From: Promethearchaeota archaeon
GTDB taxonomy: Archaea > Asgardarchaeota > Lokiarchaeia > Sigyniarchaeales > SOKP01
DNA length: 53,813 bases
Assembly (NCBI GenBank): GCA_016840165.1
Contig: JAEOSU010000004.1
Span: 1 to 53,813, forward strand
Direction of reading: 5' to 3'
Numbering within the stretch: position 1 is the first letter of the stretch; each line of letters starts with the position of its first letter. The translations under genes and the position numbers were made by a program. Below the pieces are notes generated by a model. That model did not search any database. It saw only the letters and a list, made by a program, of their open reading frames with translations, and was not told the origin of the DNA. Shown here piece by piece: positions 25,444 through 53,712 of the stretch.

Positions 25444-26229
25444 TTAGAAGATGAATTTTTTATAGGTTGAGAGGAAATTTAAGGTTTTGATGATATTAGG
25501 AATTTCAAATAAACCAATTGCTAAGCCAATCACCAGAAGGAATAGATATATATCCAATTTGGCTATATAATAAAGAAAATACGTTGATGCTTCTTGAAAT
25601 TGAAATAGAAATACTCCTTGTTGAAGATAGAAGAGAAGACTGATAGAAAGTACAATACTTGTTGATGAAAATATTATTATTGAATTATCATGTTCATAAA
25701 CTGCAATAATTAATTGTGAAATAAAGAGCAAGAGGCTAATTATTAAAGGTATTAATGCTGAAATTAACCAAATGTTATAATTGGAGGCCTTGATTAGAAA
25801 GTCATTTCCAACGTTTTCCCAGAATAATGAAGAGCTTAATATAATAAATGATACTATCGGAAGAATTAATGCTACTATTGATATTACAGTATGAAGTCTA
25901 ATAGTAAAAAAATGGGAATATTGATAATTTGCAAGCTCCTTTTCTTTTTTCGCAGTATCAAGCAAATTTTCTAACCGATTTTTTACGTGCGGAGGAATAT
26001 CTTTATTGAGTTTCTTAATCTGAAAGTTAATATCGGTAAAATCTCTAAGTAATTTGTGGATTGACTTTTCTCCTTTCTTCAACTTATCTTTTGTGCATTT
26101 AGGCCCATTCCATAAATATATTATATTTCGATCTTTATCAATAAACGCAACCAAATCATGGTAAAGTAAATGAGTACTTTCTTCAACCCATTTATCTTGT
26201 TGTTCAGTATAGATAAAGATTTTTAACAT
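25444..26229 (-). CDS. Gelsolin-like domain fused to a four-TM membrane domain
   Basis: N-terminal 'LLYHDLVAFID...IIYLWNGPKC.......G' resembles the gelsolin core; four hydrophobic segments follow. Confidence 0.65.
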   Translation of the reverse strand: MLKIFIYTEQQDKWVEESTHLLYHDLVAFIDKDRNIIYLWNGPKCTKDKLKKGEKSIHKLLRDFTDINFQIKKLNKDIPPHVKNRLENLLDTAKKEKELANYQYSHFFTIRLHTVISIVALILPIVSFIILSSSLFWENVGNDFLIKASNYNIWLISALIPLIISLLLFISQLIIAVYEHDNSIIIFSSTSIVLSISLLFYLQQGVFLFQFQEASTYFLYYIAKLDIYLFLLVIGLAIGLFEIPNIIKTLNFLSTYKKFIF

Positions 26230-46676: not shown

Positions 46677-47225
46677 TCATTCAAGGTCTGAATTTTCTAT
46701 CATAATACGTGTTATAAATTCAAAAATCTCTTCAACATTCTCTCCAGTTTTTGAAGAACATTCAAAATAGCCATTGAGGTTATATTTACTAGCTAAATCT
46801 TGCGCCTCTTCAGATTCAACGGAACGCTTATTTTGAAGATCAATTTTTCCTGCAACCATTATAATAGGGATCTCAATTTGTTGTTCTGATGTGCTCCTTT
46901 CAAAAATAGATAGCCAATCGTTAATATTTTTAAGACTTGCATACCTCGTGGTATCAAACATAAAAATTCCTCCATCCGCTCCTTTAGCAAAGCTCGGTAA
47001 TAATACTTTAAATCGTTCTTCCCCTGCAAAATCCCAAATTCTTAATCTTGCACTTTTTCCGTCGATAATTAGTTCCTTAATACTGAAATCTGCTCCGATT
47101 GTCATTTTTAAATCCTTATCAAACACTTTAGTAATATAACGTTTAATTAAAGTGGTTTTACCAACTCCACCGTCCCCAAAAAGACAGAGCTTAAATGCGC
47201 CATCACGATCGATAATAATCACCAA
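46677..47225 (-). CDS. Rab/Ras-superfamily small GTPase
   Basis: GDGGVGKT, TIGADF, IWDFAGEERF, GKID, ECSSKTGENVEE.F. Confidence 0.93.
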   Translation of the reverse strand: MVIIIDRDGAFKLCLFGDGGVGKTTLIKRYITKVFDKDLKMTIGADFSIKELIIDGKSARLRIWDFAGEERFKVLLPSFAKGADGGIFMFDTTRYASLKNINDWLSIFERSTSEQQIEIPIIMVAGKIDLQNKRSVESEEAQDLASKYNLNGYFECSSKTGENVEEIFEFITRIMIENSDLE

Positions 47226-52317: not shown

Positions 52318-53229
52318 TTATTTGTTAAAATCTTCTACTAATTTTATTAGATCAGCTTTCCTGTATTTTGAAAGTACGTTTATATCGTTTTTAGAGCAAT
52401 AAGCTTTTAGTTCTTTGACGGTCCATTTTGAGTAGTCTATAATTTTTTCTTTCAGAACTTCAGGGGCGGTAGGCTTTAAGAATTCTACCGCTTTTATAAG
52501 ACTGCTGTTGACATCAAAATAGACTCTTATTTTATAATCGTTAAATTCAATCATTTTCTCATTCAATCCTTCAACAGGGCTCCATGATTCCTCGATAACT
52601 ATTTTACCAAAAATTTCAGTTTTAGACTTCACATTACCATAAATGATATTATCACCCAGAATTATATGTTGACGAGCAAATCCTGAAGGAATTTCAGATT
52701 TTAGAATAGTATCTAATCGAGATTTTTGATCTTGAGATAAAATCTTAAACTTGTTAGGCTTTCGTAGTTTATAAGGTTGCTTACCCTTATCAATTTGCTT
52801 AGATCTTTGAGATGTATCAGTTTTCTGAGTAGGTTTTTCCGAGTAGGATGATTTAGGCATTTCTTTAGGCTCTAAAGCCATATCAAGTTTCATGGAAGAA
52901 AAACCAAAAGAATTTAAAAATTCACGTGGTTCATCCCCTTGATCCACAGAAACCACTTTACATCGATGAAAATTTGCAACATTTGCCAATTCATTTTGCA
53001 ATTCAGAGGCAACCCGTGAAGCAATAAACTTTTTTCGAACTGAAGATTGTGCTCCCTTCCATATATATATCCTTCTTAATTCTTCATCAAAAATTAGGAC
53101 TACTTGTTCGGGGAGAAGTACTTTTTTTCCATTTTCTTTTAAAAATATTTCTTTTGTAATATCAATTTGATCCTTTTCCCCTGAATCATGTAACATGAAT
53201 ATCATAAAAGGCTGATAATAAGCATTCAT
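52318..53229 (-). CDS. Gelsolin-domain protein (1DGelX-like) with C-terminal SAP/Rho-N-like helix-extension-helix module
   Basis: 'L.PEQVVLI.DE..RRIYIWKG..SSVRKKFIASR.A...VDQGDEP.EF' gelsolin domain; tail 'DYSKWTVKELKAYC....I.......KADLIKLV'. Confidence 0.85.
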   Translation of the reverse strand: MNAYYQPFMIFMLHDSGEKDQIDITKEIFLKENGKKVLLPEQVVLIFDEELRRIYIWKGAQSSVRKKFIASRVASELQNELANVANFHRCKVVSVDQGDEPREFLNSFGFSSMKLDMALEPKEMPKSSYSEKPTQKTDTSQRSKQIDKGKQPYKLRKPNKFKILSQDQKSRLDTILKSEIPSGFARQHIILGDNIIYGNVKSKTEIFGKIVIEESWSPVEGLNEKMIEFNDYKIRVYFDVNSSLIKAVEFLKPTAPEVLKEKIIDYSKWTVKELKAYCSKNDINVLSKYRKADLIKLVEDFNK

Positions 53230-53409
53230 CTTTATCTAAATTTTTTTTTCTAATTAATTGGTTTTTTTAATTATATTAAAATTTCCTGTAAATTGAATGT
53301 AAGATATAAATTTTAAAGCTTTTAAAATATCAACTCTAAGGCTGATTATAGTAATCTAAATATATAGAAAAATAATAAAAGAAAAATAATTTTAAATTCA
53401 AACTCACAT

Positions 53410-53712
53410 CTAACCTAATCCAATCAATGGTAATGCTTCATCTACAGTTAATAATGGTTCAATTTTAAATCGAGAGCCTTCAACATTGAAATATCCCGTG
53501 AACCTTTTGGTTATTGCTACGAATCCCTCATGAGATTTCGCATCTTCGACCTCATAAATGGAATAAGCCTTTAGTTCTTTATCCAAAACCACAAAGATTT
53601 GGATTCTATTTACAAAATCCGGTAATTCGGGGGCTTCCTTGGATACAAACGCCTGACCAACCTCTTCAGCCTTAGAAGGGGGATACGTAAATGTTACCAT
53701 AAAAAATGCCAT
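53410..53712 (-). CDS. Hypothetical protein, probable ferredoxin-like alpha/beta fold
   Basis: AAGGTGA Shine-Dalgarno upstream; beta-alpha-beta-beta-alpha-beta pattern ending 'EPLLTVDEAL..IGL'. Confidence 0.75.
   Translation of the reverse strand: MAFFMVTFTYPPSKAEEVGQAFVSKEAPELPDFVNRIQIFVVLDKELKAYSIYEVEDAKSHEGFVAITKRFTGYFNVEGSRFKIEPLLTVDEALPLIGLG

What the first reader, a model, noticed from the sequence alone, without database searches (positions are those of the whole stretch)
52318..53229. Gelsolin plus 'X'-like domain plus SAP/HeH module: candidate actin-nucleic acid linker
Seen: an N-terminal gelsolin domain (IYIWKG, VDQGDEP.EF), a low-complexity K/S/Q linker, a beta-rich domain (IPSGFARQHII...KIRVYF...AVEFLK) and a final ~40 aa 'DYSKWTVKELKAYCSKNDINVLSKYRKADLIKLV' matching the SAP/Rho-N/LEM-like helix-extension-helix pattern. 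Known: Asgard 1DGelX proteins (gelsolin plus an X domain) act on actin filaments, and HeH modules often bind DNA or RNA. Inference: the protein could couple actin to the chromosome or to RNA. With the membrane-bound gelsolin at 25444..26229 it hints at a modular membrane-actin-nucleoid tethering toolkit, although the two genes are about 26 kb apart and no direct link is shown.
Basis: partly seen in the sequence, partly recalled or inferred. Interest (0 to 1): 0.8.

Follow-up and report, generated by a model that had tools for sequence, protein, structure and literature searches.

The report
Asgard gelsolin with SAP/HeH tail
This gene encodes a lineage-specific version of the Asgard archaeal actin regulator 'GelX' that ends in a small SAP/HeH module, a type that usually binds DNA, so it is a testable but unproven candidate for a physical link between the archaeal actin skeleton and the chromosome.

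Summary
Window 52318..53229 (-) is one 303-aa ORF with four parts. Residues 4-112 are a gelsolin domain (best solved match Thor ProGel). Residues 113-163 are a disordered basic linker. Residues 164-256 are a helix plus five-strand 'X' domain. Residues 264-301 are a two-helix SAP/HeH module. Gel-linker-X is the known Asgard 1DGelX/GelX architecture, and the X domain occurs in 358 of 400 Asgard genomes. The SAP tail is new in the literature I could search. It marks one clade of the family and is confined to the window's own GTDB family (0 of 265 other Asgard genomes, apart from one SAP-only hit). Three results favour nucleic-acid binding by the tail:
- Only three other proteins in this genome carry the module: a probable kleisin between SMC and ScpB, Topo VI-B, and a GIFT-domain protein.
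- One nested family member carries a helix-hairpin-helix domain in place of the tail.
- A sister clade carries two tandem tails.
A complex prediction supports X-domain homodimers (0.56 against 0.02 for the best control). Actin binding, DNA binding and tethering are all inferred. I found no link to the membrane gelsolin 26 kb away. Verdict: new variant of a known kind, interest about 0.6.

The parts
52318..53229 (-). Whole gene, 303 codons plus stop: Gel-linker-X-SAP protein (P0001)
   Evidence: ORF list and translation. 378 full-length homologues.
52894..53220 (-). Gelsolin domain, residues 4-112. It includes the long helix 64-84 (SVRKKFIASRVASELQ), which is nearly invariant in the family.
   Evidence: Pfam PF00626 21.3 bits against cut-off 21. 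Thor ProGel 7c2f_B at E 2.3e-7 by sequence and Foldseek E 3.3e-4, TM 0.78 normalised by the target. Invariant columns listed.
52741..52893 (-). Disordered basic K/S/Q/P linker, residues 113-163
   Evidence: pLDDT below 50 for residues 114-161. Net charge +8, pI 10.0. Length and sequence vary among homologues.
52462..52740 (-). X domain, residues 164-256: one helix plus a five-strand beta sheet, and the predicted homodimer interface
   Evidence: Model at mean pLDDT 90.9. A profile of the domain matches 358 of 400 Asgard genomes. No convincing known fold found. Homodimer prediction scored 0.56 against a best control of 0.02.
52327..52440 (-). SAP/HeH two-helix module, residues 264-301 (helices 271-280 and 291-302)
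   Evidence: Pfam SAP 26.4 bits on the fragment against cut-off 23.9. 24.1 bits in the six-frame search at 52327-52437. VIA-align best matches are SAP, LEM and Rho-N domains at Z 5.0-6.4.
53230..53409 (-). 180-bp AT-rich upstream intergenic region with TATA-like stretches. Presumed own promoter, not tested.
   Evidence: Sequence read. The neighbouring ORF ends at 53410.

Best explanation
The gene encodes a paralogue of the pan-Asgard GelX (1DGelX) actin regulator. I propose four steps.

1. The N-terminal gelsolin domain binds Lokiactin through its conserved long helix. Like the characterised Thor 1DGelX, it caps or severs filaments.
2. The X domain pairs with a second copy, giving a dimer with two actin-binding heads on flexible basic linkers.
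3. The C-terminal SAP/HeH module binds nucleic acid, most likely double-stranded DNA of the nucleoid. The dimer would therefore hold or position actin filaments or their ends at the chromosome, or concentrate the actin-regulating activity there.
4. The protein arose in one family-level lineage of Lokiarchaeia. An ancestor probably carried both a SAP module and a C-terminal [KR]xLPxIP motif. After duplication this copy kept the SAP and its paralogue on contig C5 kept the motif.

Shown here: the domain identities, their conservation, their lineage distribution and the module's other carriers. Inferred: actin binding (about 0.85), dimerisation (about 0.55), nucleic-acid binding (about 0.5) and actual actin-chromosome coupling (about 0.3).
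For: Gelsolin identity is supported by sequence and fold. The helix region VRKKFIASRVA..LQ is almost invariant across 35 members, as expected for a conserved partner.

Published work supports an actin role for the architecture:
- Thor 1DGelX binds rabbit actin (Kd 7.7 uM) and severs filaments without calcium (PMC7444086).
- The GelX of L. ossiferum is described among gelsolin homologues recovered in a Lokiactin co-IP (bioRxiv 10.1101/2025.11.30.690169; PMC13716822).

Dimerisation of X:
- The complex prediction scored 0.56 against a best control of 0.02. That mark was reached by 20 of 30 solved homodimers and 1 of 23 proteins solved as single chains. The three runs agree in at least 95% of contacts, and partner pLDDT is 79.
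- Natural Gel-X-X tandem forms exist (P0131, P0142, P0149).

Tail as a SAP/HeH module:
- SAP scores above the Pfam cut-off on the fragment. Of 30 family tails, 22 hit HeH, 17 Ish1, 14 SAP and 7 Rho_N.
- The best fold matches are the SAP domains of E1B-AP5, SLX4, Hcc-1 and PIAS1, the emerin LEM domain and the Rho N-terminal domain.

Context of the module:
- The only other carriers in this 3.6-Mb genome are a 336-aa protein encoded between SMC and ScpB, Topo VI-B (Rho_N 32.3 bits, after the transducer domain), and a GIFT-domain protein. The 336-aa protein has a weak ScpA match of 16.8 bits.
- P0134, nested inside the SAP clade, has an HHH_5 domain (27.0 bits) in place of the SAP.
- One clade carries two tandem SAPs (SH-aLRT 100).
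- W269, T270, L274, C278, I283, K291 and A292 are at least 90% conserved. The tail's median net charge is +3.

Lineage and history:
- The profile of the X end plus SAP matches 121 of 134 genomes of the window's own family. At least 85 of those have a match spanning both parts. It matches 0 of 265 genomes elsewhere, apart from one SAP-only hit.
- SAP forms make one clade (SH-aLRT 98). That clade groups with the KLP-motif clade holding the C5 paralogue and with the SAP+KLP forms, the forks between these groups being weakly supported.
Against: There is no experimental datum for this protein or any SAP-tailed member.

SAP/LEM/HeH folds are small. The match scores (Z 5.0-6.4) lie in the range the tool warns can reflect a common arrangement only. 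Some of the matched domains act by protein contact, for example emerin LEM with BAF, MANF SAP with BiP, and SLX4 SAP with MUS81. Others are structural parts of phage baseplates.

One of the three other carriers in this genome, the GIFT-domain protein, has no known DNA role. The kleisin assignment rests on gene position plus a sub-threshold Pfam hit.

The HhH replacement is seen in a single metagenomic protein, and its score sits exactly at the cut-off.

The authors of the Thor 1DGelX study proposed that the C-terminal extension binds the side of actin filaments. A basic tail could do that, because actin is acidic.

The dimer is a model's confidence, not a measurement. No conserved gene neighbourhood points to chromosome biology. 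The two closed genomes of the sister family f3, and the closed genomes of two other Asgard families that I inspected, lack the SAP form. Any such function is therefore not general to Asgard archaea.
Confidence: 0.5

Rival explanations
1. The SAP/HeH tail is a protein-contact or actin side-binding module rather than a nucleic-acid binder. It would add a second, filament-side or partner-protein contact that tunes severing, bundling or localisation, as the Thor 1DGelX authors proposed for the C-terminal extension.
For: The Thor 1DGelX authors hypothesised an actin side-binding element in the C-terminal extension. Several of the best fold matches work through protein contacts: emerin LEM-BAF 7ndy, MANF SAP-BiP 6h9u, SLX4-MUS81 7bu5 and phage baseplate proteins. 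The tail and linker are basic, and actin is acidic (general knowledge). The paralogue class carries a short peptide motif ([KR]xLPxIP) at the same position, and that motif looks like a protein-binding ligand.
Against: The module's other carriers in this genome include Topo VI-B and the gene at the kleisin position of the SMC operon. A nested member replaced the tail with an HhH domain, whose usual ligand is DNA. K291, at the start of helix 2, is invariant. From my own knowledge, this is the position of the conserved basic residue of SAP motifs.
Confidence: 0.25
2. The tail binds RNA rather than DNA, as the Rho N-terminal domain and some SAP proteins of mRNP complexes do. The protein would then link transcripts or ribonucleoprotein particles to actin filaments.
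For: Rho_N is among the Pfam hits in 7 of 30 family tails. The Rho N-terminal domain 1a62 matches at Z 5.0, and Tho1 SAP 1h1j appears among both the fold and the sequence matches.
Against: The helical subdomain matched in Rho is not, to my knowledge, the main RNA-binding part, which is the OB fold. The co-carriers in this genome (Topo VI-B and the kleisin-position protein) act on DNA. The replacing HhH domain is typically a DNA binder.
Confidence: 0.1
3. It is an ordinary GelX-type actin severing or capping protein. The tail does not tether anything and serves only to park or buffer the protein, for example by keeping it on the nucleoid away from filaments, or it has a minor role.
For: Gelsolin and X are the most conserved parts and are shared with all GelX classes. 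Tails are interchangeable across the family: SAP, two SAPs, HhH, the KLP motif, an amphipathic helix or none. The two closed genomes of the sister family f3, and closed genomes of two other Asgard families, lack the SAP form.
Against: The tail is conserved in position and in seven residues across the clade, and it is retained in most genomes of the lineage. Duplication of the tail in one clade suggests selection for stronger binding.
Confidence: 0.15

Closest known systems
Thorarchaeota 1DGelX (Akil et al. 2020, PMC7444086) and L. ossiferum B35_GelX (bioRxiv 10.1101/2025.11.30.690169; PMC13716822)
   Same: One N-terminal gelsolin domain, a long disordered linker and a C-terminal 'X' region. 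The X domain profile built here matches 358 of 400 Asgard genomes, so it is very probably the same X. In this genome the paralogue on contig C5 and the short forms on C51 and C27 belong to the same superfamily.
   Different: The published proteins are described as gelsolin plus X, with X 'unknown', 'predicted coiled coil' or 'disordered'. Here X models as a compact helix plus five-strand domain predicted to dimerise. This protein also adds a SAP/HeH module that the papers do not mention. I could not align it directly to Thor 1DGelX, because the accessible text gives no sequence or accession. The closed sister-family genomes carry Gel-X-[KR]xLPxIP and short Gel-X forms but no SAP form.
Thorarchaeota ProGel (PDB 7c2f chain B) and eukaryotic gelsolin, villin and adseverin domains
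   Same: Same fold and detectable sequence similarity in the gelsolin domain: E 2.3e-7 by sequence, and TM 0.78 normalised by the target.
   Different: ProGel is the bare domain. Eukaryotic members multiply the domain three to six times. None of the solved matches carries an X domain or a SAP tail.
SAP / LEM / HeH / Rho_N two-helix modules (Pfam PF02037, PF12949, PF10281, PF07498), for example the SAP domains of PIAS1, Ku70, Tho1 and SLX4, and emerin LEM
   Same: About 35 residues forming two helices joined by an extended loop. Pfam SAP scores above its cut-off on the fragment, and the best fold matches are to these domains.
   Different: The module cannot be assigned to one family within the clan, because SAP, HeH, Ish1 and Rho_N all hit at similar scores. 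It is attached to an actin-binding domain, a combination I did not find described. No ligand is known.
MRTF/myocardin-family proteins (RPEL actin-binding motifs plus a SAP domain). From my own knowledge, apart from the MKL1 SAP structure 2kw9 appearing among the fold matches.
   Same: One polypeptide combines actin binding with a SAP module.
   Different: The actin-binding elements are unrelated (RPEL motifs against a gelsolin domain). MRTFs are eukaryotic transcription co-activators. No homology outside the SAP is implied.
ParR-type adaptors of bacterial actin-like ParM segregation systems (from my own knowledge; an analogy of mechanism only)
   Same: A dimeric adaptor that would hold both DNA and the end or side of an actin-family filament.
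   Different: There is no sequence or fold relation and no centromere-like site or partner operon here. The analogy is untested.

Membership tests
Gelsolin repeat (Pfam PF00626; gelsolin/cofilin fold) | Scores at or above the Pfam gathering cut-off | tested here: met
   21.3 bits against a cut-off of 21 for residues 43-105. 23.9 bits in the six-frame search of the genome.
Gelsolin repeat (Pfam PF00626; gelsolin/cofilin fold) | Fold of a solved gelsolin domain: a central sheet packed against a long helix | tested here: met
   The AF2 model has pLDDT 86-92 over residues 11-110. Foldseek gives 7c2f_B at E 3.3e-4 and TM 0.78 normalised by the target, followed by about 50 gelsolin-family chains.
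Gelsolin repeat (Pfam PF00626; gelsolin/cofilin fold) | Binds actin | not testable with these tools
   Inferred from the near-invariant long helix and from published work on relatives.
Asgard 1DGelX / GelX | A single gelsolin domain followed by a non-gelsolin C-terminal region X | tested here: met
   Domain layout. Of 151 proteins examined (149 cluster representatives plus P0001 and P0031), 57 classify as GEL-X and 18 as GEL-X-SAP.
Asgard 1DGelX / GelX | The X region is homologous to that of the characterised Thor 1DGelX | tested here: inconclusive
   No sequence or accession for Thor 1DGelX is available in the accessible text. Indirect support: the X profile matches 358 of 400 Asgard genomes in most families.
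Asgard 1DGelX / GelX | Calcium-independent severing of actin filaments | not testable with these tools
   Biochemical property reported for Thor 1DGelX only.
SAP/LEM/HeH clan (PF02037, PF12949, PF10281, PF07498) | Sequence match at or above a family's Pfam cut-off | tested here: met
   SAP scores 26.4 bits on fragment 236-303 against a cut-off of 23.9, and 24.1 bits in the six-frame search. In the whole protein it scores 22.3 bits, just under the cut-off. HeH, Ish1 and Rho_N stay under their cut-offs.
SAP/LEM/HeH clan (PF02037, PF12949, PF10281, PF07498) | Two helices joined by an extended loop (helix-extension-helix fold) | tested here: met
   Helices at 271-280 and 291-302, with pLDDT about 93-98. 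VIA-align best rows: 1zrj Z 6.4 (rmsd 2.5, 45 aligned), 7bu5_B Z 5.8, 2do1 Z 5.4, 1v66 Z 5.2, 7ndy_G Z 5.0 and 1a62 Z 5.0. These Z values are modest for so small a domain.
SAP/LEM/HeH clan (PF02037, PF12949, PF10281, PF07498) | Binds DNA or RNA | not testable with these tools
   Only indirect evidence: the module's co-carriers in this genome, the HhH replacement and the conserved Lys291.

The most novel reading that the evidence does not exclude
The protein is a dimeric adaptor that grips actin filament ends or sides with two gelsolin heads and the chromosome with two SAP/HeH tails. In this Lokiarchaeial lineage, Lokiactin dynamics would then position, compact or segregate DNA. That would be an archaeal, gelsolin-based counterpart of filament-DNA adaptors such as ParR, and the first direct actin-chromatin link found outside eukaryotes.
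Probability: 0.15. Interest if true: 0.85.

Novelty: new variant of a known kind. Interest (0 to 1): 0.6.

Why it matters
How Asgard archaea organise and move their DNA, and what their actin skeleton is attached to, is unknown. These questions bear on how the nucleus and the cytoskeleton became coupled in the line leading to eukaryotes. This protein joins a proven type of actin regulator to a module that, in the same genome, is otherwise found on SMC-complex and Topo VI proteins. That gives a concrete hypothesis that can be tested at low cost with EMSA, actin assays with and without DNA, and SEC-MALS. Three further results are useful for anyone working on Asgard gelsolins, even if the tethering idea fails:
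- The 'X' domain of GelX proteins is a compact, nearly pan-Asgard domain that is probably dimeric.
- GelX proteins fall into tail classes: SAP, the [KR]xLPxIP motif, and an amphipathic helix.
- The SAP form is confined to one family-level lineage.

The limit is that the lineage is not the one closest to eukaryotes, and the genomes I took to be those of cultured Lokiarchaeia lack the SAP form.

Tried and rejected
- **Known fold for the X domain.** Foldseek against the PDB gave nothing better than E 0.08. VIA-align wide gave only AF1514 (3c0f, Z 4.2, 62 aligned) for that part, and its list was filled by the tail. The ESM Atlas shape search returned only Asgard GelX clusters, then a dCache protein at TM 0.41. 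The feature search returned only Asgard clusters, at scores up to 0.79.
- **NCBIfam.** No meaningful hit.
- **Longer fused forms of the protein (532-2000 aa).** None at E <= 1e-5, which is weak evidence of absence.
- **Direct comparison with Thor 1DGelX.** No sequence, accession or supplement text was available. A search with the C5 paralogue listed only Loki-type relatives among its best 120 hits.
- **Conserved operon.** Neighbours match only in a 75%-identical relative and differ in more distant members. The neighbours in the window are metabolic genes and a Ras-family GTPase.
- **Link to the protein at 25444..26229.** Pfam found no gelsolin hit. hhalign against this family gave probability 0.8 over 25 columns.
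- **Complex prediction.** It failed twice because the machine was unreachable and ran on the third try.
- **Literature.** No paper in the library holds 'gelsolin', 'Asgard' and 'SAP domain' together. A wider search with six terms, at least two required, listed no paper on a gelsolin-SAP protein. The one Asgard paper there that mentions a SAP domain concerns a viral protein.
Full report
**1. What is there**

Window 52318..53229 on the minus strand is a single 303-codon ORF that starts with ATG. A 180-bp AT-rich spacer with TATA-like stretches separates it from the upstream gene. The window has about 30% G+C. It lies on contig C104 of a 3.6-Mb, 105-contig genome rated 99.7% complete and 6.3% contaminated. 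The closest named relatives are hypothetical proteins of 'Promethearchaeota archaeon' MAGs.

**2. Domain anatomy**

Pfam on the whole protein gives these scores:

| Family | Bits | Cut-off |
|---|---|---|
| Gelsolin (residues 43-105) | 21.3 | 21 |
| SAP (residues 265-301) | 22.3 | 23.9 |
| HeH | 20.2 | 28.9 |
| Ish1 | 19.8 | 26.6 |
| Rho_N | 15.1 | 24.9 |

An AlphaFold2 model built on 35 aligned homologues shows four parts:
- A confident gelsolin domain, residues 8-108.
- A disordered stretch, residues 114-161, with pLDDT below 50.
- A helix (166-177) followed by five strands (184-253).
- Two terminal helices (271-280 and 291-302).

The gelsolin domain is confirmed in three ways. phmmer against PDB sequences gives Thor ProGel 7c2f_B at E 2.3e-7. 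Foldseek gives 7c2f_B at E 3.3e-4 with TM 0.78 normalised by the target. About fifty gelsolin, villin, adseverin and Asgard 2DGel chains follow in the Foldseek list.

The linker has net charge +8.

I modelled the C-terminal 144 residues separately on a 69-row alignment, which reached mean pLDDT 90.9. In the wide VIA-align search against 48,161 chains, the tail (protein residues 256-303) matched SAP/HeH-type domains best:
- SAP domain of E1B-AP5, 1zrj: Z 6.4, rmsd 2.5, 45 residues aligned.
- SLX4 SAP, 7bu5_B: Z 5.8.
- C-terminal part of T4 endonuclease VII.
- Hcc-1 and PIAS1 SAP domains.
- Emerin LEM domain.
- Rho N-terminal domain, 1a62: Z 5.0.
- Tho1 and Ku70 SAP domains.

These Z values are modest, as expected for 40 residues. 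The tool warns that values under 8 can reflect a common arrangement only.

Sequence agrees with the fold. On the fragment 236-303, SAP scores 26.4 bits, above its cut-off. Of 30 family tails, 22 hit HeH, 17 Ish1, 14 SAP and 7 Rho_N at E <= 0.001. The six-frame genome search gives 24.1 bits for SAP at 52327-52437.

**3. The family and its classes**

The protein has 378 full-length homologues at E <= 0.001 in the 5.8-billion-protein set. It has 252 cluster representatives at E <= 0.001 in the exhaustive search.

Conservation is strongest in the gelsolin domain, and the helix VRKKFIASRVA..LQ is almost invariant. In the tail, W269, T270, L274, C278, I283, K291 and A292 are at least 90% conserved.

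I built HMMs for the three parts and classified 151 proteins (149 cluster representatives plus P0001 and P0031):

| Architecture | Count |
|---|---|
| GEL-X | 57 |
| GEL only | 44 |
| GEL-X-SAP | 18 |
| X-SAP (fragments) | 12 |
| GEL-X-X | 3 |
| GEL-X-SAP-SAP | 1 |

GEL-X-SAP-SAP is common among close relatives, making up 65 of the 120 listed.

The proteins without a SAP end in one of three ways:
- A basic stretch plus a C-terminal [KR]xLPxIP motif.
- An amphipathic helix of the type HLSDLVDFFK.
- No tail at all.

One member, P0134, ends in a helix-hairpin-helix domain instead (HHH_5, 27.0 bits, exactly at the cut-off).

**4. Distribution**

A profile of the X domain matches 358 of 400 Asgard genomes at E <= 1e-5, including 87 of 90 high-quality genomes. 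X is therefore nearly pan-Asgard.

A profile spanning the last X strands plus the SAP (A3) matches 121 of 134 genomes of the window's own GTDB family (f1) at E <= 1e-12. It matches none of the other families, apart from one SAP-only hit in f13. Some of the f1 hits are SAP-only matches to another gene (see section 5). Counting only matches that span both parts among the 150 listed, at least 85 f1 genomes besides this one carry a true X-SAP junction.

I also searched with the tail of a SAP-plus-motif form, P0133:290-403. It again hit only f1, plus a SAP-region hit in the same f13 genome.

This genome has four Gel-X paralogues:
- C104, this gene, which ends in the SAP.
- C5, 306 aa, with an LKKT-containing linker and an RRELPKIP end.
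- C51, 252 aa.
- C27, an open frame of 280 aa.

Two closed genomes of the sister family f3 (6.0 Mb and 4.3 Mb) and closed genomes of two other families have Gel-X forms but no SAP form. Some NCBI names among the hits say Hermod- or Odinarchaeota. The genome survey does not bear that out, so I treat those submitter labels with caution.

**5. Tree**

I built a quick IQ-TREE (LG+G4, SH-aLRT support, midpoint root) on the gelsolin and X columns only, using 111 rows.
- All proteins with a SAP but no motif, plus P0134, fall on one side of a branch with support 98.
- The double-SAP forms are one clade, support 100.
- P0134 is nested among single-SAP forms, so its HhH replaced a SAP.
- The SAP clade groups with the motif-bearing clade that holds the C5 paralogue (support 99) and with the forms that carry both SAP and motif, in a 51-row grouping with support 92. 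The forks among these groups fall below the tree's 95% mark, and some are drawn open.

The simplest reading is an ancestor with X-SAP-motif, followed by duplication and reciprocal loss. The deeper branches have only moderate support (87-92), so this remains a hypothesis.

**6. What the SAP module sits on elsewhere in this genome**

I searched the whole genome with A3, PF12949 and PF02037. Only three other carriers turned up.

(a) A 336-aa frame between an SMC gene and an ScpB gene, which is the kleisin position.
- Its N-terminus carries the module: 55.2 bits to A3 and 22.3 bits to HeH.
- Its C-terminus gives a weak ScpA match of 16.8 bits.
- No ATG, GTG or TTG precedes the module in that frame.

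(b) Topoisomerase VI subunit B. It has a Rho_N-type module (32.3 bits, above its cut-off) after the transducer domain. The Topo VI-A gene lies next to it.

(c) A 384-aa protein with an IFT52-GIFT/ABC_transp_aux domain, an acidic coiled stretch and the module at its C-terminus.

Two of the three co-carriers act on chromosomal DNA. Together with the HhH replacement and the tandem duplication, this is the best available argument that the tail binds DNA. It is an argument from association, not a measurement.

**7. The X domain**

I found no convincing known fold for X:
- Foldseek against the PDB: best E 0.08.
- VIA-align: only AF1514, Z 4.2.
- Atlas shape search: only Asgard GelX clusters, then a dCache protein at TM 0.41.
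- Atlas feature search: Asgard clusters only.

X was not modelled alone, so I leave its fold open.

A complex prediction with two copies of residues 160-259 gave a score of 0.56 (runs 0.55-0.57) against a best control of 0.02.
- That mark was reached by 20 of 30 solved homodimers and by 1 of 23 proteins solved as single chains.
- The three runs agree in at least 95% of their contacts, and partner pLDDT is 79.
- I used my own alignment, so the calibration counts hold only roughly.
- The symmetric interface uses residues 218-238 and 243-250, including the invariant R235.

Natural tandem X-X proteins fit a pairing domain. A dimer with two gelsolin heads would also fit the severing-plus-short-bundle behaviour reported for Thor 1DGelX. 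That last link is my inference.

**8. What is known**

Akil et al. [quoted passage not shown] They showed binding to rabbit actin (Kd 7.7 uM), nucleation at low ratios, and calcium-independent severing. They reported a GFP signal around the nuclear membrane and ER region in human cells, predicted X to be a coiled coil, and proposed a filament side-binding element in the extension.

The L. ossiferum work reports nine proteins with gelsolin-homology domains, five of them enriched in a Lokiactin co-IP. It describes a 'B35_GelX' with an X domain and a linker of unknown function.

I found no paper that mentions a SAP or HeH module on an Asgard gelsolin.

**9. Mechanism proposed, and its rivals**

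Best reading, about 0.5 overall: a dimeric GelX paralogue whose heads act on Lokiactin and whose tails bind nucleic acid, probably nucleoid DNA. It would place actin filaments, or actin-regulating activity, at the chromosome.

Rivals:
- The tail is a protein-contact or actin side-binding element (0.25).
- The tail binds RNA (0.1).
- The tail only parks the protein, or is of minor importance (0.15).

The report sections list the evidence for and against each reading and the result that would refute it.

**10. The 'toolkit' idea**

I found nothing that connects this gene with the one at 25444..26229. They are 26 kb apart and separated by unrelated genes. The neighbourhood is conserved only in very close relatives. 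The sequence-profile comparison was negative. I did not re-test that.

**11. Verdict**

This is a new variant (Gel-X-SAP) of a known kind (Asgard GelX). It is restricted to one family-level lineage of Lokiarchaeia, and it comes with a concrete, testable hypothesis of actin-DNA coupling. Interest 0.6.

Noticed in passing
G000 contig C63, locus L021:652-1659 (-): The gene between SMC and ScpB, at the kleisin position, is a 336-aa frame. Its N-terminus carries the same HeH/SAP module (55 bits to the tail profile). Its C-terminus has only a weak ScpA match (16.8 bits). No ATG, GTG or TTG precedes the module in that frame, so the start codon is unclear. Frames of about 335 aa with the same module recur in many genomes of the family.
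   Followed up: partly
G000 contig C63, locus L023:1153-3150 (-): Topoisomerase VI subunit B carries a Rho_N/HeH-type module (32.3 bits, above its cut-off) after the transducer domain, followed by a further C-terminal extension. The Topo VI-A gene is adjacent.
   Followed up: partly
G000 contig C30, locus L022:1480-2631 (-): A 384-aa protein combines an IFT52-GIFT/ABC_transp_aux domain, an acidic coiled stretch and a C-terminal HeH module. Its function is unknown.
   Followed up: no
G000 contig C5, locus L007:958-1875 (+), and proteins P0131-P0184: The widespread GelX class ends in a conserved C-terminal motif [KR]xLPxIP (here RRELPKIP), often after a Lys-rich stretch. It resembles a class I SH3 ligand or a MIM2-type peptide (from my own knowledge), which suggests a docking site for an unknown partner. 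A few proteins carry both a SAP and this motif.
   Followed up: partly
Protein P0134 (346 aa, Logan contig): A member nested in the SAP clade has a helix-hairpin-helix domain (HHH_5, 27.0 bits) where the SAP tail should be. This is a single observation.
   Followed up: partly
Proteins P0131, P0142, P0149: Some GelX proteins have two X domains in tandem, which fits a domain that pairs with itself.
   Followed up: partly
window 46677..47225 (-): A 182-aa Ras/Arf-family small GTPase (Pfam Ras, 150.9 bits), a typical Asgard eukaryotic signature protein, lies 5 kb away. It keeps its place relative to this gene in a 75%-identical relative.
   Followed up: no
window 53410..53712 (-): A 100-aa DUF3303-like protein (21.1 bits against a cut-off of 21.2) lies directly upstream and is co-oriented. 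The adjacency is kept in the close relative GCA_004524615.1 but not in more distant family members.
   Followed up: partly
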